Source of the DNA: Fimicolochytrium jonesii
Lineage: Eukaryota
Direction: 5' to 3'
DNA: 64,000 nucleotides
Assembly: GCF_025526975.1 (NCBI RefSeq)
Contig: NW_026515668.1
Span: forward strand, 62,001 to 126,000
Part shown: positions 14,301 through 53,380 of the stretch, in pieces
Numbering within the stretch: position 1 is the first letter of the stretch
How the letters are laid out: every line of letters starts with the position of its first letter
Translations under genes and position numbers: made by a program
Notes under the pieces: generated by a model
What the model was told of the DNA's origin: nothing
Database searches by the model: none
The model's input: the letters and a program-made list of their open reading frames with translations, nothing else

Positions 14301-14728
14301 CCGTAACGCATACTCTAGCATCTTTACTCTCCGCATCAGATCAGTTCGTAGGTTCTCTGTTCCCCTTCTCTCGCCTTCTAGAAACGCGATCTTGGCCTGT
14401 AATTCGGAAGTGAGGACACCGAGTGAGGATCTTCTCACATTCAAGACCTGTTCTTCCGTGCCTCGGAAGTGGGCTTCCCAGCGCATCGGATGCTTGCTTC
14501 CTCTGCCGAAAACGTGCATACCTTAAGATCAGACTTCTCAATTTCCCACTCATTTCGCTCTCGTTCGAACCGCCGCCATTCCATCTGGAGGTAGTGTAAT
14601 ACGCCAGGGAGGGAGTATGGAGGGTGACCCCCTTCTTGGCCCGCCGTATGCATGCCCTCAGAAGCCGCGGAGCCACCTGCCGGCGGACCGCCACCGCGGC
14701 CTCCTGCGTGGCCTTGTGGGCCTGACAT
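11310..14728 (-). CDS. STRN: Striatin (STRIPAK scaffold, Far8/PRO11-like), multi-exon
   Basis: N-terminal YSLPGVLHYLQMEWRRFERERNEWEIEK and AKIAFLEGER...DLMRRVKMLEYALRQER. C-terminal WD40 repeats include SHLDSIRAVAF, TASEDGTAKIWNL and GHDCSLRWWDL...MATGGADAVVKVY. Confidence 0.93.
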
Positions 14729-15241
14729 ACGGGGGGATGGTCAACAGAAGGGGAAATCTGGGATGACCGAGGGTGTTCCTGTGAATGTCGGTCTATCTGG
14801 CTCAAGTGTATGCGCGAGTACAGAGGGTTGGCAACGAGCGAGGGTGAATTCGGCGTAGACTTCAAACGTCCGAATGTCGGCCGGGGTGCTTGGGCGACCG
14901 TTCTATGTCACGGTGATCTTGGGGGGGGGGGGCAGTCAGTCCGTTGGGGAGGTGTGTATGTATTCGTCCGGCGCAAGGGCCCGTCACCCTCCGACAGCTT
15001 CCACTTCACATCACAAAGGCATCCTGAATCCCAGGCTGTTTGAGGCGGATGCAAAAGCGCGATGCCCAGATTAGCGCGACATTAGAATCGCCTCCGGAGC
15101 GTGCTGGCTTTTTGATTAGGCGGGCGCCCACCGCTTTTGACCGGTGGTTTGCGCTGGCTTCCTGAGAGGAAGGACGGACGGACTCGGAGGAAACAGCACA
15201 ACATCAACCGGCAACGCACTGCATACGTCCCAACACTCGAT

Positions 15242-16360
15242 ATGACAACCTTACGGCGGTTCGTCGCAGACGACCTGTTCTCCTTCAACAACGTGTACGT
15301 ATCCCTTTTTGGCCATCAACTCGGGGGCTGATTTATGCGCACTAGTATCCGGAAAATAGTGTCCGCGTCAAACCGGCCAAGATGTCTCAGGCTGAAGGGA
15401 GAGGGGACGGGCACGATATGGTCTGCGAAGCAGGGCGGGGAAAGGGAAATAGGGCGAAACCCTTTGCTTTGTATGCGGCACTCGCCGGGACGGTGATGGG
15501 CTGGCTGTCAGAGTTCCCATAACTGAAATTAGTGCATTTTCCCACGCTACAGAAACCTTGATCCTCTGACGGAAACTGTGAGTTCGGTGGACTGTCTTCT
15601 TTGATGCATGCCAACCAGGTGCATCGCATTCCAAGAACAACTCGTTGACCCTTAGTTTCGCAACAGTACAACATCTCGTTCTATCTGCAATATCTCGCAC
15701 AATGGCCAGACTATTTTGTCGCTGCCGAGGCTCCTAGCGGGTCCTGCATGGGATACGGTACGGTTAGAATGCGCATCTATCTCTTGCTCATAATGTAGAA
15801 TCTCAATTAATTGTACCTTTGTTATTCCCGCCAGTAATGGGCAAAGCAGAAGGTCGTGGGAAACTATGGCATGGACACGTCACAGCCCTCACAGTAGCGC
15901 CCGAGTTCCGACGGCTAGGGCTCGCGCAGGAGCTCATGGGGATACTTGAAACCGTTTCCGACAAAATGTTTGTTTTCCACATCTTCGCATCCTCTTCCCG
16001 CCCCGCCCCATGCCCCTAACTACCCCATTCCCTTAGTTACAACGCCTTCTTCGTCGACCTCTTTGTCCGCGTCTCCAACAAAGTCGCAATAGGGATGTAC
16101 GAAAAGTTCGGATACTCCGTCTATCGCCGCGTGCTGGAGTACTACACCGGCGGTGGAGAACCTGATGATTCTACTGAAGATGCGTTTGGTACGATCACAG
16201 TCCCGCTTAGCCCTCCGTTCGTGGCAAGAGGGTACATTTGATTGACTAATGGGCGTTTCGCGTATTGACAGATATGAGGAAAGCACTACCGCGAGACGTG
16301 AGAAAGGAAAGCATCGTCCCGCTGCCGCATCCGGTCCGGCCTGAAGATCTCGAGTGGTGA
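15242..16360 (+). CDS. NAT3: NatB N-terminal acetyltransferase catalytic subunit (NAT3/NAA20), multi-exon
   Basis: MTTLRRFVADDLFSFNNV / NLDPLTET / YLAQWPDYF / MGKAEG...WHGHVTALTVAPEFRRLGLA / FVDLFVRVSNKVAIGMY / MRKALPRD. Confidence 0.95.
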
Positions 16361-16938
16361 TCAGGACTAGATACCACCAAGACTGTCAAATTCCGGCCAT
16401 TGTGTCGTGTCGCCTACCCCGCGTCTCTCACGGCAAGCAACGCGGGCGAGAGATGGACCAGAAATCTGACGCAGATAAGGGAGGTTTCACGGACCCTCCC
16501 GTCTCCGTTCCCACACTCAATGCCAACGACCGCAGACATGTGCGCTGAGATGGCGAATCCGATGAGACGTCGGAGCCTTACACGCGACAAGTCGACTATG
16601 GCAGGCAGAGGGGTGACAATCCGTCATGGGGGCTCCTTCGGCGTAGCATGTAGCGGATCTATAGTTAGCAGTCTGATCAACAACGAGCTGCGGGTTTCCC
16701 GTCGACTTGAGATCAGAGATTAGAGGACGGTCTCAAGTGGGCGTAATCCGGTGTACTGTATTTAGCACCTCCAAACTGGGCCATTACGAAGCAACCCAAT
16801 CCGCCCAAGATATCGATGATAAAACAGCCAGCCCACCAAAAATATCACTGGGCGTTGATCCCAACAATCCTATATATTTCGGTCCTAAACCCATACACGC
16901 TACACCCCTGCTTTCCCACTTGTGCGCATCCCTCCCAC

Positions 16939-18240
16939 TCACCTCCGTCCACTCCCGCCACTTGGCCCCGCAGCAACCGCCGCGGCCCTGATCTCCCGCA
17001 CAGCATCTTCAAACCCGGCGCGGTACGCGGGGGTATCCGGCGGCACGATGCGGGCGAGCATCGCGGCGGCGCTTTTGACGGGGAAGCGCGGGGCGCGGCG
17101 AGGTGGTACCGCTTTCTGCTCTTGCGGTTGTTGTTGTATTGACGACGCGAGAGTAGGTTGCGGGGCGGAGGACGGTGGTGCTGAAGGTGTCTTTTGTGGC
17201 TCGGCGGCTGGTTGTGATTTTGGTTTTGGGACGGCGGCTGGCGGCGCCTGGATATCCTCCCCGCGGATCGGATCGAAGGTGTTATTGTGCAGGTAGAGCT
17301 TTGTTGCGCGTTTGGCGAGCAGGCGCTGCACGTTGCAGGAGTGTGGGATGGGTTTCGTTAGTCCAGAGTTCCTTTGGCTATGAGTTCGTAACGTACATAC
17401 CATATCCTCCTGATCCTTCGCCGCGAGATCTTTCCCGGCCGGCGTTGGCGCGTACCGAGTCGTTACGGGGTCGTATCCACCTCTGCGGGAAAGGAACCAA
17501 CGTTAGACATGGAAAGAGTGGGATCATAGCTTAGTTCCAGAACGGAGTGCCGCACACCTACCTACCCATTAAGTCCCGACCGCCATGACGCACGCCTAGT
17601 GTCCAACACCCGCTCGGCGTGGTCCTGTTGGTCCGCCATGCGGTCCCAGCGCGAAGCATCGATGTTCGTTAGCCAGTTCCTGCCGTACCGAAAAGTATCA
17701 GAAAGCGCTTGGTAAGAGTCTGGGATTCACCGTCTCTCCGCTCTTCCACCAAGCCGTTCGTTTACTGACCTCCGAAGCTGAATGCGCTCCGTCCTCCTAT
17801 CCCGATCCGCCTGTCTTCTTTCGCGCTCCGCATTGGCTACGTCTGTGCGATACCGCTGTACATCTGCCCAAAGTGGCGATCAAACCAAGAAAAATAAATC
17901 AGCTACGGCTCGCATAACTCTCTACTTTCTCCCCCGCCAGTTCCAAAGCGGTTATGCAAAACATGCGTGCGTGTCATGTACCGTCCCTCTCAAGGCCACA
18001 CCTACCATCTTGCACACTCCCAAACGCAAAAACCAAATCACTCGCATTCCTTGTATTCGTCCCGATCCTTGCATATCTCCCCGTGCCGCTGACCGCCGGG
18101 ACACTCGGGTTGTAATGTGACCCCTCCGCATAATGCGACAGCATTCGTCTCTGTGTCCGGCCGGAATCCCATGCTATAGGACCCGTGATGTCGTTGTGAA
18201 GGGTCGCGACTCCAATGGGCTCTCCTGCCGTGCTGGTCAT
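16939..18240 (-). CDS. Hypothetical multi-exon protein (charged helical middle, Pro/Ala-rich C-terminus)
   Basis: Coding-like minus-strand segments separated by GT-AG introns (MTSTAGEPIG..., DVANAERERRQADRDRR, WDRMADQQDHAERVLD, LLAKRATKLYLHNNTFDPIRGEDI). No family recognised and exon structure is approximate. Confidence 0.55.
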
Positions 18241-19472
18241 CCTTGGGGAGTCGGTGATGTTAGATACTGGCTAACGCGGCTATCTCCTAAGAGATGCGGG
18301 TTCCCGTGAGAAAGGCGGAGACGAACGACTGACAGTGTGAGGAATGACAGCGGCTTATGTCACGCGTTTTCCTCCCAAGTTTTGGCTTTGCGAACAGACC
18401 GGAAGTTCGTCCATTCGGCCCTGACACGCTTGGCTCCATGAAGATCGATCGCTAGACTTCTTCTTCGTCTATGAGGGCTGTCCGTGCACGAGCTCAAGCT
18501 TCAGGAGGCCATCTTATGTACTGGTGCACAAATGGTTGGTAGAGTAACAGCAAGTTCGCATTGCCGGGTTGTGAATGGCCCTTCAAACCGGATATGTCTG
18601 ACTTCATCGCGCCTGTTTTGTTTCGTGGATCAGGAGCAAAACTATTGGATTGGAGGAGGTAGAGTGGGACGCGGCGGCACAGCACTGCTCAAACCATCGC
18701 ATTACTGTCGGTACGCATAGTTCGAGAGGGCAGATGGAGAGCCTGAGAATCGAAGCATACTTACGATACAAACTTGCCGGCGAAGATGTCTGCTTTCCGT
18801 GCAACGTTTTTCTTGTCCGCTTTTCCTTGTAAGAAATATTGAGTATGGAACAAAGCGCCGTTGAAAACATGTCATCTTCAACCGGCTGTTCGGCGTTCAG
18901 GTGTGGCCACCGTGTTCCGAGGTCTCGGATGCAAAATCACTGACAGGTTCGCCCGTCACTTTTTCATTTTACCGCAGCGGCCAAGATTGGACCTTCCTGT
19001 TCTTCTTCTGCTATGACGTGGGGCATGCAGCAATCCGCCATCGGGGTTCTCTATCTGTGTCGTCAGAGAGGCACCTCAGCGTGTCCCCTTTTTGTCACAT
19101 GCCGTCAGTCGAAAGTCCAGAGTTTTTGTCCCTGTTCGTCCAATTTGCAAGGCACCCCCCCGACTTTGCTCAAGGGAACAGACTCTTGGGTTGCGTTTTT
19201 TCTCAGAGTTTGTTTTTCAAAGGGTTTGCGTTCCAGCGGTTCACGAGAAGCAGCAACGTCGGCACACACTAAAGGAAAGTGTTGACACCCTGACCCCCCA
19301 ATTGGAAGCTGTTTTGAGTAAAACTGAAGGTGAGCGTGCTCACGCCTACTACTATGCATTCAGCCTCCCAATCGGGGTCACCTTTCCAAATCCCAGTTAG
19401 CGGTGTCGGCGCTATCGATTTTCTTGACTCACTGAAACTCAAGCTCCAGATCTACCCGCCTTGACCGTAACC

Positions 19473-21143
19473 ATGCCTCGGAAGTCTCAGAAGATTTCCT
19501 GCCCTCCTGCCCCCAAGGCAGTACCGCCAAATGTTAGGCCGCAGGTTCAGGGGTGGCTTAACGCCGTTGACAAATACGCATCCGAAGTCTCCGACGGCAA
19601 ATTCACATCCATGGCCCTGCCAAGCATGACTCTCGATGAGCTGAACGGCTTTCTGCAAGGCTTCTTTCGTCAGCTCAAAAGGAAAGATGGCTACCTGTAC
19701 CCTCCCACATCCATAGCCACCTGTTTCAGGTCGTTGAACCACTATATCAGGAGCACGCGACAGGATGGGCTGGACTTGAGTAAAGATGAGCGATTTGCAG
19801 TATTGCGGGAGCTTGTTGAGACAAGGAAGCTACAAGGAGCAACACTCGCGGGGAGTGAGACGTGGGGAGCGCACGGAACTCGATCCGTCAAGAAGGCTGC
19901 AACCAGGCAAACCGCCAAGAAGACTCCAACCCTTCAACCACCAGAACAGAATGCTGGGAAAAGGAAGGAGCGGCCAAGTCCATCTTCCTCAGAGATCAGC
20001 GATGTCGAGGATTCTTCTGAGAGCCAGGAAATCGAGATCACGGACAAGGCGGCCGAGCGAACGGAACCCGCCAGCGACAATGCAGTCAAACAGATGGCTA
20101 TGGAAACAGAGGCACCCAACGTCCGCCTCCACGAGCGGGAAGATACACCCGCCACGGCACACATGATCTCGGAGAGCTCCGTGAACATCTTTTCCGACGC
20201 GACCAGCGACGAAGATGAGGAGGACGCAGTTAGCGACACTGATAGGGCCAGCCAGCGAACGTTCGATGACTCCGACTCATACTCAGACCTCAATGTGAAC
20301 GATCTGAACACAGAGCCCGCCGCGCCCGTGCTTCCGTCCGATCGCACGCTTCCTCCCTGTGAGGAGATGGATGTTGCTCTGCAAAAGATTTTGAGCCAGC
20401 GGAAACAAGGAGTCGGCACTAAAGCGACTACGCAAGACCGCAATTTGCAGGCGCTGGAAACACAAGGTTTTAAGACGGTCAGACGACTCGCAAGAAACAC
20501 GATGATGTTTGGCTGTGACGATCGGCGACTTCGGTCTCCGACTGGTGCTGGCGAAACAGTGAAACTCACGAGCAGTGTGCGGACCAGGGGTGAAAACGGC
20601 GCGAGCGGACACCGGCCATTGGATCAAGGCGGAATTCAGAAATCGTCGGAACTCGTGAATCAAGAAAGCCGATCGAGCAATGGCAGCGGCAATCTCATGA
20701 CAGCAATCCCCGGAATGAGCACGCAATCAGTGCTCCCCGACACCAACCACGGAAACGGGAAGCCCCCCCAGGAAGTTCAACCCCCGGACGTGGTGGGCCC
20801 CATCCGGCGACACACCCTTCCGCGCACCCAACTCGCAACCCATAATCCATTCCTGACCTTCCCCAATATCGGGAACATGCTCCCGAACGCCGCGCCCATC
20901 GGCATGCTCCGCCCCTACGCCTACTCTCCGAGCACCACCGCGGATCAGCGGATGTACTCGCCGCCAATAAATTCGCCGCCGATTTACTCGCCGCCGCCGC
21001 CGCCGCCGCCTACGGCGCCCGTATGGGACTTCCATATGACGGCCGCGGCGTTGCGGGAGGGCGGCGTGTTTGAGGGGTTGGCGGGGTTGCTGATGTCGGC
21101 GTCTCGGGAGGGTGGAAGGATTGCGGTGCATTTTGATTCGTAA
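19473..21143 (+). CDS. Intronless protein with an N-terminal Crypton/DUF3504-associated (ZMYM/QRICH1/KCTD1-like) domain and a disordered remainder
   Basis: TLDELNGFLQGFFRQLKRKDGYLYPPTSIATCFRSLNHYIR...DLSKDERF resembles the ELNxxLxxFxxxxRKxDGxxYPPxSL motif of Crypton-derived proteins. Confidence 0.7.
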   Translation: MPRKSQKISCPPAPKAVPPNVRPQVQGWLNAVDKYASEVSDGKFTSMALPSMTLDELNGFLQGFFRQLKRKDGYLYPPTSIATCFRSLNHYIRSTRQDGLDLSKDERFAVLRELVETRKLQGATLAGSETWGAHGTRSVKKAATRQTAKKTPTLQPPEQNAGKRKERPSPSSSEISDVEDSSESQEIEITDKAAERTEPASDNAVKQMAMETEAPNVRLHEREDTPATAHMISESSVNIFSDATSDEDEEDAVSDTDRASQRTFDDSDSYSDLNVNDLNTEPAAPVLPSDRTLPPCEEMDVALQKILSQRKQGVGTKATTQDRNLQALETQGFKTVRRLARNTMMFGCDDRRLRSPTGAGETVKLTSSVRTRGENGASGHRPLDQGGIQKSSELVNQESRSSNGSGNLMTAIPGMSTQSVLPDTNHGNGKPPQEVQPPDVVGPIRRHTLPRTQLATHNPFLTFPNIGNMLPNAAPIGMLRPYAYSPSTTADQRMYSPPINSPPIYSPPPPPPPTAPVWDFHMTAAALREGGVFEGLAGLLMSASREGGRIAVHFDS

Positions 21144-24054: not shown

Positions 24055-27000
24055 TCATTCCCCCATACCGTTATCGGGCCTGCCAAAAAGAGCAAAAATC
24101 AACATGTTCAGCGAAAAAAGACCCAAATCCAAGCCACAACTCCGTCACGAAAAAACCTACATCTCACTCGGCTTTAACAACCCCGGCACCTGCAACGCCT
24201 TCTCCAGCTCGCTCTTCTTCTTCAGTTCCGCCTCGGCTTCCCGCTCGCTCAGGAAAAGCTCGCTGTTATCCGTGCCCGAGAATTCCTACATCCAACAAGC
24301 AGGGTCAGTTCACAATCAACGCGTGCAACCGGGGGATGTGATTTCATCATACCTTCAAGGTAACCAAGAAATCACGCAAATTGGTCCTGAACGCCGGTTC
24401 GTCTGAGCAGGTGGTGAATAAAGCTACGACGACCTTTTGTATTTGCGCGCTGAACCAAATCAGAAAAGAGTCGTATCAGCTACACACTCCCGAAGAACCT
24501 TCCACCCCAACAACATACAAAATCAGCGTTTTCTCTTATCTCACCTCTGCAAATGCGGAAACGCCCTCTGCAACAAATCCATGACATACTCCCCAACAAA
24601 GCGCTGGTTGGTCATAGTCGGATCCGGCACCTGCGCGCGGTCAAACAGCGGCACCGTCAGCTTCGGCGGCTGCGTCGTGTCGGCTACCAAGGTGAACATC
24701 TCGCGGAGGATCATTGTTTGGAGTTTGAAGCCTAATAAATAAATCACCGACAAGTCAGTAACCGTGCCTTTCTGAATCCCAACCACAACCCACTCCGATA
24801 CATACCACTCTTATGAAACGGATTCGTCAACACAAAAAACACATCCTGCAACAGACTCAAAAAGTAACTCTGGTAGAACCCGCTCGCGGTCACGGGGTCG
24901 GCCAGTTTCTCAAAGTTTGTAAACATCTCTAGGATGATCGTGAGGCCAACGTCGCTGATGTCCCGCATCGTGTGCTTGAAAGCCCACACGATGCTGTCGA
25001 GGAAAAGCCGGAATTGGGGGGGTGGGAGGCGGAGGAGGGCTGAAATCAAGGATCTTTTCAGCAGCAGGTAAAGCGGATACGAAGCAGATGTTGGGAGCTC
25101 GTTTTGCCCACCTTGGAAACAGTTTTTGTTAATAGCCTGCATCAAGCTAAAGAACCCAACACGATGTTCAGGGTAATCCTCAAAGTTGTTATTGATCATA
25201 TTCAACGTCGATTCAAACACAGCGTCAAGGATGGCAGGAACCTGCTCGTTCATAGCACTCTGACAAACAACTCAAAAAAGTCAGTGTCATACCTCAACAA
25301 ACGTCTTCACAAACACACACAAACCACCCACCTCAAGCTTATTAATGATATTCGCCAAAACATGCAACACAAACGCATCCTTCGCCGGCTCGACGCTGCG
25401 CGCATAGTCGCTTAGCACCGTCTCGAGGAGGGGCGGGATCAGGTTGTGCATGACGGTGGCGTGGTCTTCCGCTTTGCTGATGTAGGTTTGGACGAGCCGG
25501 AGGACGTCCTTTTTTATCGTGCGGAGGACGCGGACTGTTGGTGTTACCGTTGCGATGTATCCTACATGAACAAATACAATTGATTAAAAATCTTGGTTCA
25601 AATGCCCAAGAAAGATCCAAGATTGACTCACCTTTGACCTCAATCTGCTGACAAATCAACCCGCCCACCGCAGCATACAGCGCTAGCAAATCCAGGTAGT
25701 TGCGCGCAATCTGGATATAGAACGTAGCTCCGACGGACGTGCAGGCGGATATGTTCGTTTTGATGATGTTGGCGAGCATCTTGACCGTTTCCGGATTTTC
25801 GAGGATGTTGGGCTCGATGCGCGCTTGGGCTATGTAGTTGTCCCACTATTATTTGAGAGGGAAAGGGGTGATGAGGAAAGCAGAGGGTATGATAATTCCC
25901 AGCTAACGAATGTGATCGGTTTCAAAACGTACCGCGCGGTTGGCCCCCTCCATAAACCGATTAATAAGCCGTTCCTGCGCCCTGCGCTCGGACTGCGCAG
26001 AGATGATGTACCCGACCGCTTCATAGAATGTATGCAGCTGCGGGGTAGCCAGATCGCTAGTGATGATATCCATCGAGTCGAGTATCTCGTCAATGTACGG
26101 CATGTGCTCGTTCAGCTGCTGGGCGACAAAGTGTCGTTTGCATTTTTGCGCGATTTTGATGAAGGTGTCGCATGCCATTTCCTGTACACCTAGAGAAAAC
26201 AGACCAAAGTTACGTGTAAGTTCCACCAACTCATTTACCGTGTCACGCTCACAAACACTGCTCGCACATTACCTTCATGCATCTCATGCATAAACTCAAA
26301 CAACTTATTCACAACCGTCTTCAAAAACTTCCAATGCGCCTTCAAGAACCGCGGGTACTGCCCCACAATATACATGATATTCGACGCAACGATCGCTTTA
26401 TTATCCTTGCCCTTCTTGATCTCGCACAGGCTGAGGAGCTCCTTGATGACCGTGACGAGGAACTTCTTCTCGACTTCTTCTGACATGGCCATGCTGATGG
26501 AGCCGATTGCCCAGCAGAGCTTGTTGAGGTTTGTCCAGGACCATTCGGAGCCGTCGGCCTGTGGGAATTGGATATCTGAGTTGGGTTGACATTCGAGAAA
26601 GATGTTCGAATGAGAAGTGGGAACCTCACCTGTCCCCTCAGCTTATCCGACATGATCCGTTCCATATCCTCCACATCCAAATGCGTGCAATACACTAGCG
26701 TCTCCCGCATACTCTTATACAGCACAATCGTATCACTCTCCTTCAACGACTCTCGCACAACCTCTCCCTCATCGTTCTCGACAACAATGACTTCCTCGGG
26801 TTTGACCATCTGCTCAATCATGATGGTGCGCAGCCGGGACAGGACTTCGGGGTACATGTCCTTCCTCATGGGTTGGTTGTTGCCAAAGGAGGAACGGACG
26901 CCGGCGAGGTTGAGGAGGGGGACCTCGACGGTTCCGGGGAAGGTGTGTTTTTCTTCGTACAGTTCTCCGACAAGTTTGTACCAGTATTCCAGGCAGATCT

Positions 27001-28432
27001 TGAACAGCTCCCGATCGTCGACCGCGGAAATGGCGAGCAGGTACCGGTGGCCGATGATGAGATGTTGTTTCAGACTCGTCTCTACGAGGGTGGCGGATTC
27101 AAGCGCCTTGACATGTGCACTGAAGAAGCTGGTCAGGAAGAGAGCGAGGTTTTGCACGAACTGCTGGTCGTTGTCCGAAAGGTCGTCCCAAGTGGCTTTG
27201 AGGTCAGTCTCCACAGGAAGCATAGCTGGTATGCTCTCCACGGTGATCGAGTATAACTTCACAAACTTTTCATCGTACGCCGGTTCGTGGACTTGGAGGG
27301 CCGCAATCTCCGTCAAACACTTCAGAGACACATTTCGAAACACCGGAACGGTGAAAAACCGCCGTTCCAAAACCTCAATAAGGTTGGTCTCAAAGATATA
27401 CCCCAACGGAATCCAGTTAAGAAACCTCAGCAATGTCTCCAGCGTCGCGTTGATCAAGCTCGGCTTCTGCGCCTTTTCGAGGACTTCGTGGCAGAGCTGG
27501 AAAATTTCGGAGAATTCGGCACACATGGTGTTTTTCAGGTTTTTCGCTTTGACGGACGTCATTTGCTCGGCGGAAAAGTCGAAGATCTCCTCGCTGTAGA
27601 AGAATCAGGATGTGAGCCCACAGAGTGGTGAGCTGGGTCAAAACTTAAGCACAACATACCTCAGCAGCTTCAGGATGTTCATGTTGTTCTCGCATAGTGA
27701 GAGGTTGCTCTTGCTGGCTGTGACGAGCTCCGGGATGAACGTCGGCCAGTTATGTGGCCACTCCTGCTTCAATATCTTTGAAAGCGTTTTCGTCAGCCAT
27801 GCCAACAATCGGTCCCTTGCATTACGCAGAATACGTACTTGCACCAAAACGATGTTCAATTTCGAAAGCAGCAGGCGGTTCTTCTCCAGTGTCTCGTCGT
27901 CGGACGAGTTTTTGATGATGAAAGCAACAATGAAATTTTTGATGCCTAGGGTTTGTGGGACACTGATTGAGCAGGGTGCCAGTGGTCTCTTCCAGGTGTA
28001 TCCGATCCACGTACCTGCTCGCTGATCTTCCGGCAGGATCTTCCACATGCTCTTGATCAAGTTCTCCAGTATGGACAGTGCGATATACTGCGAGAGGTAC
28101 GGTGAGAGGTGCCCATCAAACGATCCCAGAGAAGTTTGCCAGACACCTACCTTGGACTGCAAAACCTGTGACCGCTCAAGGATAGCGTCCACCCTCTTCC
28201 AAGCGTCGGGGTGCTGCCTGAATTGCTCGAGGACTGTATTCGCCACCGATTGCTGCAACGGGCATCAGTGTCAGTGCCCCCTACACATTCATGTTCCTGG
28301 CATCTCACCAAAAGAGGTCTGCGTCGCAGATGACCCTGTCCTTACCTCTGGCCCATACACAAACATGGCGTTAACGACGCCGTCGAACAGCCCAGTGTCT
28401 AGATCACCGCTAAAGTCCAAGATGCCCTCCAT
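24055..28432 (-). CDS. CRM1: Exportin-1 (CRM1/XPO1), multi-exon
   Basis: [137 protein letters not shown]. Confidence 0.97.
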
Positions 28433-29105
28433 CGTGATAGTATGAAGCAATTTACAGAGTCGAAGAGGTGAAAGTGTCGATGCTGGTGAAGTAGCCCGCC
28501 CTGTTCCTGTATATCCCAAGAGCGTTTGTGCTTTCTCAGAGAGTAACGGCTGTCCCGTTCCCGAAGTTGTGGGAGAAAGCGGAAGGAAGTTCGAAATGGA
28601 CCGGTTGCAGTGAACACCTGGTCCGTGTGAGTAGGTTAGGTATATGTAGCGGCTTCACTTGTGGTGGGCAACAGAAGACGCAGGCTGGTGGCGGAGGAAG
28701 GGGTTGGTTGCTAGTGCCAGGAAGCGCACGGCAAACGGTTGCGTTGGCATGGAGGCAGGACCGGGAGGGGGTTGGGAAAGGGCCCTCGAGACGGATCCGC
28801 TCGCTGGATAAACAACCGCTGCTAAACCGCTTCCTTACGCGCTGTCCCCACCACCCCGCCCGCTATCCTTGACTTGGAATCCTCTGTTCCCCTTCATCCA
28901 AGTTCTCTTCGGTCTTCTTCCGCGCCTTTCCTTCAGCCAAAACGTTGACATTCATTGATGCAGAGCCTCTACACCCTTATAGAGCGTGCACGTCAAATGG
29001 CATTTACTACAGAACTAGCCATCGGACTGACCAGTCTCTCCTCTTTTCGACCGACACTCCGAGTCGGCAACCCGTCTCGTCAGTCAAGTCCATCTAGATA
29101 TGCTG

Positions 29106-30571
29106 TCATTGCTCGCAAACATCACCCTCCACAATACAAAGTGGATCGAGACATGCCTTTGGTTGCGTGCATCCCCAAGCTCCTCCATCTTTCATCATGA
29201 TTATGTGCGAGGTGAAGCCAGTGCTCTCGAAAGCAACATGTGAAGGAGACTTGGCGAGTTCCTTGGCCGGCTTTCTTGAATATGTGCGCAAAGCAGTCCG
29301 CTCGTAACTCTGAATGCGGGGCGGGCGATGGATGGTGAGCATTTTTAGCATTCATGTTGATTCATCGCTCTTCGCTCTATATGTTTTGTGTCCGAAGTCG
29401 AGCGTGCTTTCGGACATCGCCAGGACATCGTGCACATCCGTCCCACAGTCGCGAGGAGATCCCACGCACTTACTCCTGTCGGCCGGCTCGACCTTGAGGT
29501 TCGTCCCGCACTTCGAGGTCTGCTGTCCCGTGTAGCCGGTGGGACAGGGCGCCGACACAGGCATGTCCACCTTCGTGTCTGCGAAAACGCCGTCCGATGG
29601 GCAAGTCATCGGCACACATCCTGACGTGTTTGTATCCCAGATGCCGGTATCTATGCACGTCCCGAGCAGACTGCCGGTGTAGCCCGCAGGGCATGATGCC
29701 GTTGCCGTATAGTTGATGCCTCTGGTGGGGAACGTGCCGTTATCCAGGCATTGCGTAGGCTTAGGGATGCACTGGGATTGATCGATCACGAACTGGCCGT
29801 TGACACATTTGGCCGACCGTTTCCCGGTGAATGCGTACGGACATGAAGCCCATTGCACAGTGCCATCCGGGACCGGAGTCCAGAGGCCACTAGTGTCCTT
29901 GCAATCTTGCGGCAAGGCCACACATTGGCTGTCGTCGATGTAGTTGGAGAAAGTCCCGTCCTCCTTGCACAGCGCATATCGCAGGCCGCTGTAGCCGACC
30001 CGACACGGGGCCGCGCCCTTCTCACCCGACTTGGTTGCCGGCCACACTACGCCGTTGACCTCGGTCTTAGGGCAGTCTGTCGCACGAGAGCATCCGTCCA
30101 TTGTACTGCTATTCTCGAACCCCTGAAGGGTGCACTTAGTCCTCCGCATGCTCCTATAACCAGTCAGACAAGGCGCCTCGCTGTAGCCGCCAACGGACAG
30201 CTCGGGAAACCCCCCGTCCGCATCGCATTTCTTTGCACGGCAATCAGAGACGTACGACTCCGCATCGGTGCCCCAGGTCCCGTCCGGTTTGCAAAATTGT
30301 TTGGAGAACGTCCCGGTGTAATAGTCACTGGGGCATCCCGCAATCTCGCTCCATTGGCCCGGTTTCCTCCTTGGGTGAACGTCTCGTTAGGCGGACAGTC
30401 AGGCGCCGGCGTGGTTCCGCCTGAAGCCTCAGTGCTGCTCTCGGATTGGGCGGGGTGCTGCTCTCGTTGCTCACAGTCTTGGGGCGGAGGAAGTACCACC
30501 CGCCGCTTAACCCGGTCGCCATCAGACAGCTGCAGAGCAGGGCCACAAACAGGACAATAATAGTCACCATG
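29106..30571 (-). pseudogene. Frameshifted Cys-rich surface/secreted protein with tandem HRM-like (C..W/F.....C..G..G....C...G.W.....C) repeats
   Basis: Hydrophobic N-terminus MVTIIVLFVALLCSCLMATGLSGGWYFL. Frameshifts near 30445 and 30365 link to GQWSEIAGCPSDYYTG...CPKTEVNGVVWPATKSGEKGAAPCRVGYSG.... A stop at 29352 is followed by a Cys-rich tail to 29106. No introns. Confidence 0.7.
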
Positions 30572-30665
30572 GTGTGCTTGTGGACGTGCGATGATAAAAA
30601 AAACGCGACCTCCAGTGGAGTGCAGGTATTCGTATAAAGGGTAACGCGCCGGCACAACAAAAGTC

Positions 30666-30950
30666 ATGGCTTCTCTAGGTGTCCTGTCCCTCGATACCGA
30701 GCACCGCTTTATGACCGAGTTCCATGAATATGACATACCTCTCACCAAGACGAACATAACCGAAGCGAAGGAGATCCTGTCAGATCTGCTCAGGACGTCG
30801 GATACACGCATGGTGGCGATCGTAGCCAACGAACGCTTGCGGCGATTCATGAGCACGCCAGTTCCGGATGCAGATGAGGACATCAAGCTGAAAATCGTGG
30901 CCAGCGTCGTTGAGGTTTACCGTGCGCTGGCACATAGGCTGCTCTCGTAG
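30666..30950 (+). CDS. Small intronless ORFan (94 aa)
   Basis: Clean ATG-to-stop ORF with helical composition, packed tail-to-tail with the 30953 ORF (2-nt gap). Confidence 0.55.
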   Translation: MASLGVLSLDTEHRFMTEFHEYDIPLTKTNITEAKEILSDLLRTSDTRMVAIVANERLRRFMSTPVPDADEDIKLKIVASVVEVYRALAHRLLS

Positions 30951-30952
30951 GC

Positions 30953-31414
30953 TCATTCGCGCAATGTACATGCACGGTTAGCTAACTGTAGTTCACCGTC
31001 GTGGAATGTCTTGTTTACAAAAACCCCGTAAGGCGCCCAGAGTGCGTCATTCCAGCGCCTGAATGCCTCCTTGGCGCGATCACTACTTAGAGCACGCCTC
31101 AGCCGGCGCAACGCGTGATACGACCGAATGCATCGCACGTAGCGGTTAGGATGGATCTTGATGCACGCGATGGGTTGCCTTTGAAGTATTATCCGGTTGA
31201 ATGCCCTGCCGTTTACATTCGTTCGTGTATTGCTCGTTGAAAGGTTGACATATTTCCATTCGGAAATATCATTATGCTTGATGAAGACATCAGACAGATC
31301 TGTTGAGTATCCTATGAGGTACTCGTTCCCCAAATGATATGTATGCAAAGTTCTCCCGCCTCTAGTGGCATGTTCGTTTAGCTGACAGTTCTTTGCTAAA
31401 CCTGCCTTGGGCAA
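30953..31414 (-). CDS. Intronless ORFan, possibly 5'-degraded
   Basis: 153-codon open frame in lower-GC DNA with only a non-ATG start; ends ...RRWNDALWAPYGVFV.... Confidence 0.45.
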   Translation of the reverse strand: MPKAGLAKNCQLNEHATRGGRTLHTYHLGNEYLIGYSTDLSDVFIKHNDISEWKYVNLSTSNTRTNVNGRAFNRIILQRQPIACIKIHPNRYVRCIRSYHALRRLRRALSSDRAKEAFRRWNDALWAPYGVFVNKTFHDGELQLANRACTLRE

Positions 31415-31427
31415 ATGCAGATAGTCC

Positions 31428-31838
31428 TCAAAGTAATATATGATGTATTTGTGTCCGAGCCAGTGGAGGTATGGGGCATTGCTGTTGTCGTCGCAACGAG
31501 GCGGTTAGGGATATATGACTGAGTTGACGGCACAATGCGTTGTACGTAATCGAATCCAGAACTCCGACGCGTTGTTTGACAGTGAAACCAGGGCCGTGGA
31601 GCCGGTCAAACAGCATCTCTCGGAGACAGTAGCCGAAAGCCGACTTGTGGGAGGATTCACGCGCTTCTCTATAGAGTGAGTTGATCAGCCAGTAACAGTA
31701 TCGAGACGATGATACCTCGAGAAGGTCTTCCCAGCAACATTTAGCCGCGGCTAGATGTCTCAGGGAACCTACTGCGCAAAGGGTATCGTTGGAGAGAACA
31801 AAAGGTGGCCTTGCTTCTCCATCCTCGATCCTCTGCAA
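31428..31838 (-). CDS. Intronless ORFan, possibly degraded
   Basis: 136-codon open frame with a non-ATG start, 13 nt from the next ORF. Confidence 0.35.
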   Translation of the reverse strand: MQRIEDGEARPPFVLSNDTLCAVGSLRHLAAAKCCWEDLLEVSSSRYCYWLINSLYREARESSHKSAFGYCLREMLFDRLHGPGFTVKQRVGVLDSITYNALCRQLSHISLTASLRRQQQCPIPPLARTQIHHILL

Positions 31839-31856
31839 ACTGTAAACGGAAAAGCC

Positions 31857-32171
31857 ATGGCGGACATCATCAAGTTACTCGCTGCGCTCGACACCGCAAG
31901 TTGCGCCAACGTTTCCTACTTCACGCTCGCTGGCAAGTCGTTCATCGGAAGAGTCGTGTACACCTTTCCTGCGAACCCGACATATTTCGACGTTATCACC
32001 GAGTACCATGGGAATCTTGTGAAATTCAAGCTGTGGAATTCTACACACTGGAAAACGAGAGTAACGCCGAAAACAAACGACATCATACGATTCACTGTGA
32101 TTGGTTTTTCACCGGAGTACGGAGAGGGCTTGCTGGATTGTACTATAGAAGAGAAGCTAGAAGCGATCTGA
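31857..32171 (+). CDS. Small protein resembling a degenerate thermonuclease (SNase OB-fold) of the giant-virus type
   Basis: gccATG start. VSYFTLAGKSFIGRVVY...FDVITEYHGNLVKFKL...IIRFTVIGFSPEYGEGLLDCTI parallels FSL.G....A.VV.VYDGDT..V.....G...KF..R...FDKYGRLL, but the catalytic DGDT is absent. Confidence 0.45.
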   Translation: MADIIKLLAALDTASCANVSYFTLAGKSFIGRVVYTFPANPTYFDVITEYHGNLVKFKLWNSTHWKTRVTPKTNDIIRFTVIGFSPEYGEGLLDCTIEEKLEAI

Positions 32172-32798
32172 TAGTGTTTGAGTATAGGCATTATTGAGTT
32201 TATACAAAGTTCTACTCGCTCTCACACGTCTCGTCTATCGGTATCTGACCAAAGGTGCGCAGAGCGCCGACGTACTCTCGGAAATGAGACTTCTGGAATA
32301 CCTCGCCTCCGATCAATAAGTGAGCGAATGTCACCGAGTCCAAGGGGATCCCGGGGTCCAAGGAGATCCTACAAGCTGTTGCCGCGATTTGGCCAGAAAT
32401 AACATCACCGCAGTAGCCTTCCGCGCGAAATAACAGCCTTCCGCGCAGAATAATCACCGCTGCCTGCGAAGCTCTCACAACGTTCCAACGCTGCGCGACT
32501 GCTCAAGGAGTCTGAAGGCTCGGACATATGAATCCGCTGCGTCGTCGGCAAACACCCTTTCCCTCCACAATCTCAGCATTTCAAGATCAAGACCAAGATT
32601 CCGTGGCCCATTCGCCTTTCATATCGTCGCTCTGTCCCCCGCGCGCTCTCTCGGAGAAGGAGAAGGAGGTATCGCCGACAAGGGTAGAACATTGCGTCGT
32701 CAATACAACGAAGAATATCTAAGGGTAAGCTTTATTATCCATTTGAACTGGGTATCAGGGTGCCGTCGCCTCATTGTTTGCTATTACGTACGCTAGCC

Positions 32799-34043
32799 AT
32801 GACCAAGCGGAAACGAGACAACAAAGAGAACACGGCTGAAGTCACCAAAACCCAGAAGCCCCGCCTGCAAGGTTGGTGTGGTGTGTCCATCTCATTGAAC
32901 TAAGCGGTGGCCGTTCATTGGGGAAGCTACGCTACGGCCGTAGGCTGGTGTGGTGTGGTGTGGTATATATCGTCCAGTGGGTCACTGGCTTACCCAACAC
33001 ATCACCCAGAGACACCAACCATTCCGCCGGACTACGCTCGTTTCAAGAAACGATGGCTCAACAACCTCCTACGGCAACTGACGAACAAAAGCAGAATGCG
33101 CATCGCTGCTTTCGATCTTGACGCCGTGATACCCACGCTTTCCGCTAAACGTCAACCCAACACAATCACGAAACAAGGAAACGTCATAAGAAAGAAGACT
33201 CCCCAATGAGTTTATATGAACGAGATCTCGTTGCCGTCCTCCAGCACCCGGTCTTGGATAGAGGTATGAGCTAAATAGGAATGCTTTCCTTTCCGAGGAA
33301 AAGGTCCAATGCACTTCCAATCCCCAGCCATCTGCGTTGCAGAAGATGCAAAGGGCCTCCCGCTGTTCGCGTACGTCAATAACGCCGTTCATACGACAAA
33401 TATCGCCGATTTGAACAAAGCCATCCAGCAAATGATGGTAGAATACCCAACCAGCCTACTGAAGATGGACGATGCACGTCATGTAACATTCCCAGGGCAA
33501 CCGAAAGAATACGGAGCATGTAATCTGGGAATCTGGCAAGCGCAAGCGGCAACAGTGCCTTCCATCTCTGCCGAATCCGCCGTCTACCGTCACACAGCGG
33601 CTCAGAGCTTTCTGTGCTCCGAGGTCTTCCGGCGGCTCTGTTTCTCAGTTAGTCTGATGTTCGACAAGGTCGACCCGGGCATGGCAAAAGAATACCGGGA
33701 AGCGTTCAAACGGATGGCACCAGAGCATCAAGGATTCTGGGCTTCAAACCCCTACCAGAATTCGTTCGCGATGGTTGTGCTTGTCATCCACGAGTACGTT
33801 CTCAAGCATCGTGACCTGAAGGACGCCAAACACGGATGGTGTGCTGTCGTGTGCCTCGGCGACTTCAAAGACGTTAAATTCTGTCTTCCCGGTCTGGGGT
33901 TGCGTATTCCTTTTCAACCTGGCGATATTTTGTTCATTCGCTCCTTTGCTTTGGAACACATGGTTCGCAAGTGGCAACCGGGCTATCGATACACTATTGT
34001 GTTTAAAATGCACCAGCTGATTCTGAATGGAACCCCTGTTTAG
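32799..34043 (+). pseudogene. TET/JBP-family 2OG-Fe(II) dioxygenase (fungal KDZ-transposon-associated type), 5' part disrupted
   Basis: HRDLKDAKHGWCAVVCLGDF...CLPGLGLRIPFQPGDILFIRSFALEHMV...YRYTIVF gives the HxD...H...R signature. Same-frame upstream stops at 33207, 33267 and 33276. A basic N-terminal exon MTKRKRD begins at 32799. Confidence 0.8.
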
Positions 34044-34469: not shown

Positions 34470-35777
34470 ATGAAACATCCACTTCTCGCCGCCCTCCCCT
34501 TCCTATTCACCACCCCATCCGCCCTCGCCCAAATCGACACACCCCTCGGCCCCTTCCACCTCACCACCCTCGGCGCAACGCTCCTCAACCGCTTCGTCCC
34601 CGAGCTATGGACCGACCTGGGCCTGTTTCGGCACACGGTCAAGAATGTCGGGCAGAGGGCGTGTGTTCGTCTCACCGATGGAGACGACGCAGGGAAGGCG
34701 TTTGGGGCCGCATATCCCGTGAATGTAGAAGACATCGCCATGGACCGGGTGGGAAAGATCGCATTCATGGGCTCCGACCCCGTCCGCCGGAAAGCTGACG
34801 GGTCGCGCGGGTGGATGCCCGGTAGTGGGTTTCTGGACGCGGAGTTTGGGAGTAGCGCCGAGGGGGCTGTTTGGGCGTACCATTACGGGAAAAGTGAGGG
34901 TGGGATGACAAAGCTGGAGATCGAGCCCCCGTTGCCGAGTTTCCACCCGCATGGGATGGCGAGTCTGAGACTGGAGAACGGGACCGTGCGGCTCTTTGTG
35001 GTGAATCATAGGGCGGAGGTGCCGTATAACAAGACGGCGCTGTACTCGGTCGTCGAAGTGCTCGATTATACCCCCACCACCTCCTCTTTGGATGAACCAC
35101 AAGAACGACACACGAAACTCAACCACATCACAACCATCCAACACCCCCACATCTACACCCCAAACAACCTCTCCCCCATCTCCCCGACCGCCTTCTACGT
35201 CTCGAACGACCACGCCGCCCGCTCCGGCACCCTCCGCACCCTCGAGGAGTTCGCGCAGTACCCCTCCGCGTGGCTCACCTACTGCGACTTCACCCGGTCC
35301 GTGGACTGTTCGGTGGCGTACACGGGTCTACGCAGCGCCAACGGGGTCGCAACGGACGGGAAGGGGCTGGTGCTGGTGTCGGAGGTCAGCGGGGGGGACG
35401 TGCTCGCGTTCCGGCACCACCCGTCCACAGATAGCCACACACCCCCGCATCTCGAACTCACCACCCGATACAACCTCGACTACGTCCCCGACAACATCGG
35501 ATACGACCCCGTCACGGACACATTCACCCCCGTCGGACACCCCCGCGCGCTCGCGTTCCTCGCCTTTGCGGAGGGCCACGCACCCACCGCCCCGTCGTGG
35601 GCGGACGCCATCACCGCGGATGGGAGCATTAGCAGGGTGTGGAGCGATGACGGCGGGGTGGTGGCGGGGTCGACGGTGTTTGAGGTCGATGTGGAGGAGG
35701 ATGTGGCGTTCGTGAGCGGGGTGTATGATCAGCGCGGGGTGGTTAGGTGTCGCGTGCCGGAGGGGTTTGGGCGGTGA
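34470..35777 (+). CDS. Secreted paraoxonase/arylesterase-like six-bladed beta-propeller
   Basis: Signal peptide followed by PON-family motifs NVEDI, FHPHGM, LFVVNH, PNNL...FYVSNDH, SANGV, PDNI, GHP. Intronless. Confidence 0.88.
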   Translation: MKHPLLAALPFLFTTPSALAQIDTPLGPFHLTTLGATLLNRFVPELWTDLGLFRHTVKNVGQRACVRLTDGDDAGKAFGAAYPVNVEDIAMDRVGKIAFMGSDPVRRKADGSRGWMPGSGFLDAEFGSSAEGAVWAYHYGKSEGGMTKLEIEPPLPSFHPHGMASLRLENGTVRLFVVNHRAEVPYNKTALYSVVEVLDYTPTTSSLDEPQERHTKLNHITTIQHPHIYTPNNLSPISPTAFYVSNDHAARSGTLRTLEEFAQYPSAWLTYCDFTRSVDCSVAYTGLRSANGVATDGKGLVLVSEVSGGDVLAFRHHPSTDSHTPPHLELTTRYNLDYVPDNIGYDPVTDTFTPVGHPRALAFLAFAEGHAPTAPSWADAITADGSISRVWSDDGGVVAGSTVFEVDVEEDVAFVSGVYDQRGVVRCRVPEGFGR

Positions 35778-51361: not shown

Positions 51362-53380
51362 GCGTTCAGTTGGAAACACAACGAAAAGGGAAGTTTGCAT
51401 ATAGGCTCATAGAACAGCGACGGGTCAAAAAAAACCGAGGAAATGGCCGAGCAGAGGTCCAAATCCAGTCCGTTGGGAAGGATGCCAAACAACAGGATAA
51501 GAACGATGTGGCCCAGATGTATATGACAACCATCTCGAGTATCCATATTTTCCGTTGATCGTCATGAAGAATGTCCAATCGGTCAGCAAGAGCTGCAAGA
51601 TCATCCCGCGGTGGTCCAAAGCTTGCGTGGACAGATCATATTCTTTTCCTTACGTTTTGTGTCCAGGGGAGTGGGTTGGTCTTATTCCGTTCGTGCCAAA
51701 GTAAGCACCACATTGCCACCACAAACCGAGCAGCCAACACTTGATTCCGCATCACTTCCTGTATCAATTTCTCCTACCGATCGTCATCAAAAGCCAGATG
51801 GTCAGCAACATCACGTGGCCCATTTGGGATGCCCTCGAAAAGGGAAGGATTTGCCTACTTTGTGTGTACGACGGAATCGTTTCGCCTTCTTCCACTTCTT
51901 GGCTTCAGCGAGGTGATTGCGATCGATGGTAGACCCCGGCTCATCGTGAACCATTGCAATCTCTAGCACACATCGTTCGTTTGTTTCCTATTGGTCGCCA
52001 TACAATCCCCCATCTTCAGCAAGATGAGTAATGTAAGCTCGGACGTAGGTTTTTATTCACTGTTCCGGCAGATCGCTTTTAGTCCAGCATGGAAGGTTCT
52101 TTTCCAGTAGGAAGTGAGGAAAGCGATACGTCTGGATACAGCGGGCATTCTCCATCTTACAGTATTTGAAGCCCATATCATAGCACCAAACCTTTTGTTG
52201 TGTGTGTGAACGGAGCCCTTGGGGGCAGAGGGTTGACAATGAAGACGATGGACCATAACTACCCGCTGACCAATCAATATCATGACACTTGAGGAACGCA
52301 CATGGAGCATTCAATGCAGTATGCGGGATGGATCTGCAGTCAGGATCACATTGTGGAACTTGGACGGCGCCGGCCAAGAGCAAAATCAACCTTCCCAACG
52401 CCATCAGGTTCCACAACAAGGTTCTGGATGTTATTCGACACTGGACAGGCAGCGGACTCGGAAATCGCAGAGCTCCTGAATACCGTCGCGGCGTCCTTTA
52501 AAACTGGGCAACTACGCAATAATTCGACAGCGCAACTAGCTGTCACTTTTGGCCTGCGAAGACGAGCCGCTGAAATGGAAACTTTGCCAGCGACTGAAAG
52601 GAACGGAGGAGCTGCCGGACTTGCAACGCCATCCCGCCCGACCGAGCAAGACGCAATCCCGCGACTTCCGCGGCGGCGCTCAGAGAATTGTTCCACTTCA
52701 ACCGGACCATCACAGAGGCAACCATGGCGGTTGGAGCGTGCAGAGGATTCTTCGTGCACTATTTTGCACCTATTCCATATCTCCATCCGTCGCCGCCCTT
52801 CCCGCGCCTCTCATATTCCTGCCTCCTCCCCTCTTCCCTCTTCATGGCCCGCGACTTCCTGCCCCTTCTTGAGCGCCTGCTCCCCTGTTCGCGCCAAAGG
52901 AGGCGCACGCCCACTATTGGTGCGTCATGAATTCCCTCCCGGTATAGTTCTTGATGTCGATCATGCGAACTCTCTTGTGATGGGTGGTGCTGCACCAAAG
53001 CTTTCCTCGACACGGTTCCCTACATATACGAACGGTTTTGGAAATGGATGGACGTGCGAGCCCCCCTGGGAGCGTCTGGCGGAGTTTACGACGGTACGAG
53101 AAGCTACGTGTGTTTTCAAATTGGGACTGATTATGCCCTTTCAGCGACGCTCGGATTATGTTGACTTGGTTCAGCATTTCAATTTACGGGATGGAAGTTC
53201 TTCTGTCATGACAATAGCTTACAATTTACAACCCATCTGATGCATATTCCGACCTTTTAATTTAAAATTTACATGTCCTGTTGGACGTCGACGACTCTTC
53301 TCAATAAGGCTGCATGAAAGCGCCGCAATGCACATCAGTGGTCAAGTTCTCTGCCAGACAGACCGATGGCGCCCTCACCA

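What the first reader, a model, noticed from the sequence alone, without database searches (positions are those of the whole stretch)
28950..32400. Decaying island of compact intronless ORFans resembling an endogenised large DNA virus fragment
Seen in sequence: between intron-rich CRM1 and the paraoxonase gene lie five tightly packed intronless ORFs on both strands with 2-95 nt gaps. They are less GC-rich, lack the host's C/G block skew, and several have frameshifts or lost starts. Content is a membrane-anchored Cys-repeat protein, small ORFans and a degenerate thermonuclease-like gene. Established knowledge: zoosporic fungi are reported to harbour endogenous giant-virus (Nucleocytoviricota) sequence. 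Inference: this is a relic of a giant virus or Polinton-like element. No hallmark gene (capsid, PolB, packaging ATPase) is visible, so the origin is not proven.
Basis: partly seen in the sequence, partly recalled or inferred. Interest (0 to 1): 0.75.

Follow-up and report, generated by a model that had tools for sequence, protein, structure and literature searches.

The report
Decayed virus-like gene patch beside TET
A 3-kb patch of tightly packed, partly broken genes differs in sequence make-up from the fungus-like genome around it and is likely a leftover of a large DNA virus, a kind of relic already reported in such fungi, here lying next to an overlooked gene predicted to encode a TET-type DNA-modifying enzyme.

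Summary
The island is real but smaller than stated: about 29,250-32,250, with four genes rather than five. It has the lowest C/G block skew in the window (0 of 264 other windows as low). It is not notably low in GC. Gene A is an N-terminally anchored protein with six HRM/sushi-like Cys repeats and two frame breaks. B and C are ORFans, and C has one frame break. D is intact. D's first 60 residues resemble the N-terminal module of giant-virus thermonucleases (empirical p about 0.003) and not a prokaryote-type set, but the catalytic motifs are absent. No hallmark gene, terminal repeat or relative with known viral context was found, so viral origin is likely (0.6) and unproven. TET genes are reported as cargo of fungal transposons, Polinton-like viruses and one endogenous giant virus. 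Whether this one belongs to the island is open. No genome, reads or sister species were available. Verdict: probably a new member of a known kind; interest 0.35.

The parts
29250..32250 (.). Compositionally distinct segment (approximate edges, 500-nt windows in 250-nt steps)
   Evidence: Negative host 4-mer likelihood in nearly all windows; block skew 0.077, 0 of 264 outside windows as low; CC/GG O/E 0.86 vs 1.02, TpA 0.75 vs 0.61, CpG 1.06 vs 0.99
30451..30570 (-). Gene A, N-terminal piece: ATG at 30570, hydrophobic anchor segment, start of a Ser/Thr/Pro linker
   Evidence: Seen in the sequence; codon bias +0.15 in this frame; the same layout in relatives such as P0008 and P0019
30374..30448 (-). 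Gene A, middle piece in a second frame: rest of the linker and the first Cys of repeat 1; a frame break on each side; an 11-nt direct repeat (30465-30455 and 30442-30432) lies at the first break
   Evidence: Only this frame extends the match over the whole repeat unit (model 3-51 against 24-51), although at a lower score, 12.5 against 17.1 bits; sequence
29352..30386 (-). Gene A, body: 344-aa open frame with six HRM/sushi-like four-Cys repeats (the first incomplete in this frame) and a short tail
   Evidence: Pfam HRM E 1.2e-7, 32.5 bits, cut-off 26.2; six unit matches; model of residues 96-344 with mean pLDDT 87.8, all beta; 121 matches incl. itself
30666..30950 (+). Gene B: intact 94-aa ORFan
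   Evidence: Best codon bias of six frames; no family at E below 0.04 in Pfam, NCBIfam or PHROGs; not searched in the large protein collections
30953..31504 (-). Gene C, C-terminal piece: 183-aa open frame without its own start
   Evidence: No relative found; best codon bias of six frames, though weak
31428..31736 (-). Gene C, likely N-terminal piece in another frame (ATG at 31616 possible); one frame break near 31,500
   Evidence: Open frame 31428-31874; best codon bias of six frames over 31500-31736; no Pfam or PDB match
31857..32171 (+). Gene D: intact 104-aa ORF (138 aa from an upstream ATG at 31755), likely an OB-fold derivative of giant-virus thermonucleases without the catalytic motifs
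   Evidence: Profile score 34.2, z about 7 against shuffles, rank 1 of 568 window frames; prokaryote-type profile z 0.8; 3 of 1016 real protein pieces score as high; Atlas lean to OB folds at 0.80, a lead only
32799..34043 (+).
   Evidence: Pfam Tet_JBP E 5.3e-5, below cut-off; the only PDB matches are Naegleria Tet-like dioxygenase chains, E 0.57 and 0.78; HxD at 33807, second His near 33957; stop-free models with 0, 1 or 3 introns exist
26342..28432 (-). Host CRM1/exportin-1, 5' exons (left flank)
   Evidence: Pfam CRM1 repeats E 1.9e-32; best PDB match 4fgv, 364 bits against 315 for the next
34470..35777 (+). Host paraoxonase-like gene (right flank, beyond the TET gene)
   Evidence: Pfam Arylesterase E 0.08 only; host-like GC3 0.79

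Best explanation
The 3-kb patch holds four tightly packed genes, two of them broken by frame shifts, and is likely a small, no longer mobile remnant of the accessory-gene region of a large eukaryotic DNA virus (giant virus or Polinton-grade) that once integrated into this fungus-like host. Shown: foreign composition, packing, three frame breaks, and the repeat architecture and fold of A. Inferred mechanism: the virus integrated, most of it (capsid, polymerase, packaging ATPase, ends) was deleted or rearranged away, and the remainder is drifting. In the virus, A would have been a membrane-anchored surface or attachment protein presenting a chain of six disulfide-bonded beta modules. D would have been a small nucleic-acid-binding OB-fold protein derived from the viral thermonuclease family; its motif loss looks like old divergence rather than decay, because its frame is intact. 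The patch is predicted to make no virus and to be silent or nearly so.
For: Lowest block skew and lowest host 4-mer likelihood in the window. Gaps of 95 and 2 nt. B, C and D have no detectable relatives in the searches run, as half of Mycodnaviridae genes are ORFans (52% in PMC13533422). D matches a profile of 53 giant-virus-bin thermonucleases (z about 7, rank 1 of 568) and not a 12-sequence prokaryote-type profile (z 0.8); 5 of the top 7 of 3,843 frames in a plain phmmer are these nucleases. A's repeats are closest on average to a compact, N-terminally anchored class (highest class mean for 5 of 5 repeats; 18 of 50 top places from 58 of 608 units). A's model matches viral proteins in BFVD, including two Edafosvirus proteins at E 2e-5. 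The insert lies inside a 2.24-Mb contig between host genes. Lone viral genes on otherwise fungal contigs are reported in chytrids (PMC13533422).
Against: No hallmark gene in the frames scanned and no terminal repeat or target duplication. No relative of A or C was tied to a viral contig: 7 protein scans of IMG/VR were blank, and 0 of 46 virus records, 27 of them giant-virus bins, matched the A profile or C (no positive control rang). The named relatives of A among 30 clusters looked up are protist proteins (Blastocystis, Ancoracysta). A's fold also matches animal complement proteins. The D match is not significant at database scale (HMMER E 2.7 among 1,027 frames; hhalign probability 17%), covers only its first 60 residues, and its C-terminal part scores at chance. 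GC is unremarkable, and an island-trained model did not recognise the island's own parts.
Confidence: 0.6

Rival explanations
1. The patch and the TET/JBP-like gene are the cargo of one DNA transposon or similar mobile element (KDZ, Plavaka, Helitron or the like) that has lost its transposase; the TET would have kept the element free of silencing marks.
For: A TET/JBP-like gene starts about 550 nt from the edge. TET genes are cargo of 11 lineages of fungal DNA transposons (PMC12730594). Its catalytic exon also has low skew (9 of 287 outside windows as low) and GC3 0.56, like C and D. The island shows no CpG depletion.
Against: No transposase in the frames scanned and no inverted or direct terminal repeat better than 12 of 14 nt. 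The TET region has host-like 4-mer and dinucleotide make-up. The word 'chytrid' does not occur in PMC12730594. It does not explain D's likeness to giant-virus nucleases.
Confidence: 0.15
2. The genes came from another eukaryote (a protist) or are fast-evolving lineage-specific host genes, now partly pseudogenised; A is a surface protein of the kind found in Blastocystis.
For: 450 of 608 repeat units from A's relatives fall in my catch-all, protist-like class and take 19 of 50 top places; named relatives are protist. GC3 of A (0.68) and B (0.66) is within the host range.
Against: Gaps of 2 and 95 nt and the loss of block skew are unlike the host genes of the window. No close relative of A turned up in the word-based search apart from itself. 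The protist proteins read are long, mostly with a signal peptide and a C-terminal anchor.
Confidence: 0.15
3. Bacterial or phage DNA, either transferred or joined in by a chimeric assembly; the frame breaks may be sequencing errors.
For: Compact intronless layout. HRM repeats also occur in prepilin-type, bacterial-looking proteins. D's nearest Atlas clusters are phage, bacterial and archaeal, at lead level only (0.87-0.88). No reads could be checked.
Against: The prepilin class has the lowest mean score for 4 of 5 repeats. No phage match for C, D or the TET at useful E. D does not fit a prokaryote-type nuclease profile. Promoter-like sites are at chance level, 2 against 2.9 expected. Host frames of 971, 716, 709 and 651 aa in the same window run unbroken.
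Confidence: 0.1

Closest known systems
Giant-virus relics in zoosporic fungi (Mycodnaviridae and lone viral genes; PMC13533422)
   Same: Gene-dense, ORFan-rich, apparently intron-free DNA inside a fungal contig; the paper also describes single viral genes left on otherwise fungal contigs.
   Different: Those elements were defined by a major capsid protein and other core genes and reach 350 kb with inverted terminal repeats; this patch is 3 kb with no core gene, so it cannot be placed in the family.
Giant-virus thermonuclease (SNase, PF00565) family, loci L004-L104
   Same: The N-terminal extension and first strands align with D.
   Different: D lacks the acidic catalytic motif, the second motif, the central helix and the C-terminal part, and has no Pfam SNase match; it is at most a non-catalytic derivative.
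HRM (PF02793) / sushi-like tandem-repeat surface proteins, N-anchored class (P0008, P0019, P0021, P0032, P0035, P0068, P0092)
   Same: N-terminal hydrophobic anchor, short linker, tandem four-Cys beta modules; 28-40% identity in the best stretches.
   Different: A has six repeats, no recognisable C-terminal lectin-like domain and two frame breaks; the relatives are unnamed and their genomic context could not be read.
TET/JBP genes of fungal DNA transposons (PMC12730594), Polinton-like viruses (10.64898/2026.06.19.733378) and punuivirus (10.64898/2026.10.09.758095)
   Same: A 2OG-Fe(II) dioxygenase with HxD...H next to foreign DNA; the punuivirus TET is intron-bearing and host-like inside a viral element.
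   Different: No transposase, capsid or terminal repeat links this TET to the patch, and its activity, expression and phylogeny are untested.

Membership tests
Endogenous Nucleocytoviricota element / Mycodnaviridae | Core genes (major capsid protein, PolB, A32 ATPase, VLTF3, D5 helicase) | tested here: not met
   None in the island frames scanned against Pfam; the rest of the window was not scanned in full and no genome is held
Endogenous Nucleocytoviricota element / Mycodnaviridae | Higher gene density and fewer introns than the host | tested here: met
   Gaps of 95 and 2 nt; no intron is needed to read B or D; no RNA check
Endogenous Nucleocytoviricota element / Mycodnaviridae | Composition different from the host | tested here: met
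   Block skew and 4-mer likelihood; GC does not differ, and the test did not separate it
Endogenous Nucleocytoviricota element / Mycodnaviridae | Genes whose best relatives are giant-virus genes | tested here: inconclusive
   Modest match of D; context of A's relatives not obtained; B and C have no match
Endogenous Nucleocytoviricota element / Mycodnaviridae | Placement in the marker-gene tree; silencing or methylation | not testable with these tools
   No marker gene; no sequencing run listed
Polinton-like virus / Maverick | Capsid, packaging ATPase, integrase or replication gene within 15-40 kb bounded by terminal repeats | tested here: not met
   None in 28.9-34.3 kb; a deleted remnant is not excluded
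TET-bearing DNA transposon | Transposase or Helitron replicase beside the TET gene | tested here: not met
   No such family in the frames scanned
TET-bearing DNA transposon | Terminal inverted repeats and target-site duplication | tested here: inconclusive
   Nothing above 12 of 14 nt between the tested flanks; the true ends are unknown and may have decayed
TET-bearing DNA transposon | Multiple dispersed copies | not testable with these tools
   No genome; no second copy within the window
Thermonuclease (PF00565), for gene D | Match to the family model | tested here: not met
   No SNase row at E up to 1; no staphylococcal nuclease chain at E up to 10
Thermonuclease (PF00565), for gene D | Catalytic acidic and arginine motifs | tested here: not met
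   The aligned positions carry other residues
Thermonuclease (PF00565), for gene D | OB fold | tested here: inconclusive
   Single-sequence model pLDDT 36.8, its fold search uninformative; Atlas lean 0.80
HRM domain (PF02793), for gene A | Pfam gathering score and four-Cys repeat | tested here: met
   32.5 bits against 26.2; six units
TET/JBP dioxygenase (PF12851) | HxD...H iron-binding triad | tested here: met
   Motifs at 33807 and near 33957, the latter aligned with the Naegleria enzyme; triad as described in PMC12730594
TET/JBP dioxygenase (PF12851) | Pfam gathering score | tested here: inconclusive
   23 bits against 34.9, E 5.3e-5
TET/JBP dioxygenase (PF12851) | Oxidation of methylated bases in DNA | not testable with these tools
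   Needs an assay

The most novel reading that the evidence does not exclude
The patch and the TET gene are one element: the stump of an integrated fungal giant virus or Polinton-like virus whose host-like, probably spliced TET latency gene has been kept intact while the neighbouring viral genes decay. This would be a fungal parallel of the punuivirus TET, and possibly a viral demethylase domesticated by the host. Gene A would mark an undescribed family of HRM/sushi-repeat attachment proteins of such viruses.
Probability: 0.2. Interest if true: 0.65.

Novelty: new member of a known kind. Interest (0 to 1): 0.35.

Why it matters
As a relic alone it adds one small example to a reported phenomenon, and without a core gene it cannot extend the virus tree. 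It would matter more if the TET gene proves to have arrived with it, because that would extend virus-borne counter-silencing from green algae to fungi and give a testable case of a host keeping the viral enzyme. It would also matter if the N-anchored HRM-repeat class proves viral, because that would name candidate attachment proteins for viruses of wall-less spores.

Tried and rejected
No own genome is held, so copy number, other viral genes and synteny were not tested. Sequencing runs: none was listed, so expression and the reality of the frame breaks are untested. Seven protein scans of IMG/VR found no relative: C (12), A (13), P0008 (28), P0002 (29), P0032 (33), alignment A3 (48), P0068 (69). 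The one metagenome scan gave L001, a different repeat protein among bacterial-looking genes, which I rejected. The one scan of prokaryote genomes with the TET exon gave L108, where the match falls in a potassium-pump-like membrane gene (name recalled), also rejected. Word-based protein searches found nothing for C or D and only itself for A; only near lengths were searched, and B and the TET were never searched in these collections. PF02793 rang in 0 of 21 virus records, the A profile and C in 0 of 46, and the TET exon in 0 of 32; 54 of 100 handles given were not held, and no positive control rang. The model of D was unusable. D against YokF gave no colinear match. An intron reading of the breaks in A was considered: it would remove the first Cys of repeat 1, so two frame breaks are preferred, but RNA could overturn this. 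No RNA family at E up to 0.5. Bacterial promoter and terminator scans were at chance. A second fold search of A's model had not finished after four collections and was not read. Earlier scan notes: nothing for this genome or by sequence. Literature: none of the 20 papers listed of 475 held 'hormone receptor domain' or 'PF02793', and none of the 20 listed of 110 held 'thermonuclease'; these two searches do not show absence from print.
Full report
WHAT IS THERE. The region lies between the 5' end of CRM1 (Pfam) and a paraoxonase-like gene (weak Pfam match). The one database protein identical to part of it comes from a contig of 2,244,513 bases, so the patch sits inside a long host sequence. The CRM1 exon matches PDB 4fgv best (364 bits against 315; that 4fgv is a fungal protein is recalled). 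A fungal host is therefore consistent with the data.

COMPOSITION. The skew claim holds: 0.077 over 29,250-32,250, with 0 of 264 outside windows as low. Host 4-mer likelihood is the lowest of 63 two-kb windows and is negative from about 29,250 to 32,250 except near 31,500. Windows at 14 kb and 53 kb come close, and a model trained on the island did not recognise its own held-out parts. CpG is not depleted (1.06 against 0.99), so there is no trace of methylation-driven decay.

GENES. Codon bias favours the frames of A, B, C and D but not the ORF at 28,958-29,200. Gene A begins at 30570 on the minus strand with a hydrophobic anchor, passes two frame breaks in its linker and continues in a 344-aa frame. 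That frame passes the Pfam HRM cut-off and holds six repeat units. Only the middle frame supplies the first Cys of repeat 1 and extends the match over the whole unit, although at a lower score. A model of residues 96-344 from a 52-row alignment is confident (pLDDT 87.8). It matches tandem sushi proteins in PDB and, in BFVD, an unnamed protein (E 2.9e-8), herpes- and poxvirus complement-control proteins and two Edafosvirus proteins (E 2e-5; that Edafosvirus is a giant virus is recalled). TM-scores are low (0.15-0.35), so this shows a module type, not a donor. Among 121 matches I sorted four classes by eye from their termini. The compact N-anchored class has A's layout and the highest mean score for 5 of 5 complete repeats, with 18 of 50 top places from 58 of 608 units; the catch-all protist-like class took 19. 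Of 30 clusters looked up, those with an organism name are Blastocystis and Ancoracysta, and the N-anchored ones are unnamed. Their context could not be read. B is intact and has no family match. C lacks a start in its main frame; an upstream open frame with the best codon bias probably holds its N-terminus, which makes a third break. C has no relative in any search run.

TEST OF THE THERMONUCLEASE IDEA. Pfam and PDB sequence searches do not call D a nuclease. A recalled motif retrieved 101 virus loci, 54 labelled as giant-virus bins. An HMM of 90 distinct sequences (100-260 aa; one non-nuclease and duplicates dropped) ranks D first of 1,027 window frames but at E 2.7; 6 of 2,000 shuffles score as high. 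A profile of 53 of the 54 giant-virus-bin sequences scores D at 34.2 against 14.5 plus or minus 2.6 for shuffles (0 of 300 as high); hhalign gives P 0.0015 and probability 17%. D ranks 1 of 568 window frames, the next scoring 21.5. A 12-sequence prokaryote-type profile gives z 0.8, partly because it lacks the N-terminal extension. D's C-terminal 44 residues score at chance (774 of 1,000 shuffles as high). Against real proteins, 3 of 489 ORFs score higher, all three cyanophage nucleases, and 3 of 1,016 pieces of longer proteins do. The resemblance is real at about p 0.003 for a hypothesis stated beforehand, is limited to the first 60 residues and lacks the catalytic motifs. It is the only sequence-level pointer to giant viruses.

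THE MISSED NEIGHBOUR. At 32,799-34,043 lies a gene whose last frame matches Tet_JBP below cut-off, has Naegleria Tet-like chains as its only PDB matches and keeps the HxD...H triad. Stop-free models exist with no intron (244 aa), one (257 aa) or three (about 330 aa), so its structure is unsettled. Its 4-mers and dinucleotides are host-like, while its skew is low (9 of 287 windows as low for the last exon, 14 of 282 for the whole gene) and its GC3 is 0.56. No transposase or terminal repeat was found.

HOW IT LIKELY AROSE. A large DNA virus integrated; deletion left four accessory genes; A and C have since broken. Three breaks in 3 kb contrast with unbroken host frames of 650-970 aa, which argues against assembly error, though no reads were available. 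I give this 0.6, a TET-bearing transposon 0.15, a protist or host origin 0.15, and bacterial DNA or an artefact 0.1.

WHAT IS KNOWN. PMC13533422 (parts 1-3 of 8 of the text and passages read; 4 of 10 supplements searchable, no hits) reports capsid genes in 17 of 141 fungi, lone viral genes on fungal contigs, 52% ORFans in one element, and polinton-like integrases in five isolates. PMC12730594 (part 1 of 7, passages and section 23) reports TET genes in 11 transposon lineages of rusts, mushrooms and Pezizomycetes. Preprint 10.64898/2026.10.09.758095 (abstract, passages and section 10) proposes that an intron-bearing TET keeps the endogenous punuivirus unmethylated. Preprint 10.64898/2026.06.19.733378 (passages) reports TET genes in some Polinton-like groups and Polinton-like ATPases in numerous chytrid genomes. 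Preprint 10.1101/2025.04.19.649669 (passages) finds viral regions in 153 fungal assemblies and frequent pseudogenisation. PMC12344493 (passages) added nothing used here. I did not see the gene tables in the preprints' supplements or the Mycodnaviridae data deposit; they may list genes like A or D.

VERDICT. The patch works like a small endogenous viral relic but fails membership of Mycodnaviridae, Polinton-like viruses and TET-bearing transposons on their defining genes. It is best filed as a probable new member of a known kind. The TET neighbour is the part worth following up.

Noticed in passing
   Followed up: partly
window 14001-18000 and 52001-55000: Two more stretches with near-zero host 4-mer likelihood; four open frames there gave no Pfam match below E 0.5.
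   Followed up: partly
window 31728-31767: A 40-nt imperfect palindrome (83% complementary) between the divergent starts of genes C and D.
   Followed up: no
window 32415-32453: A 19-nt tandem near-duplicate just outside the right edge of the island, with a second short near-duplicate around 32340-32370; possible junction scars.
   Followed up: no
window 19428-21143 (+): 571-aa frame whose N-terminus has a faint QRICH1-domain match (E 0.28); it recalls Crypton-derived domains (from memory).
   Followed up: partly
proteins P0002, P0005, P0013, P0017, P0044, P0062: An unnamed class of Asn/Ile-rich HRM-repeat proteins with a C-terminal anchor in ENA assemblies, on contigs up to 84 kb; source unknown.
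   Followed up: no
proteins P0043, P0053, P0056, P0073, P0078, P0100: HRM-type repeats behind a prepilin-like N-terminus (N_methyl match in P0056), suggesting a bacterial use of this module.
   Followed up: no
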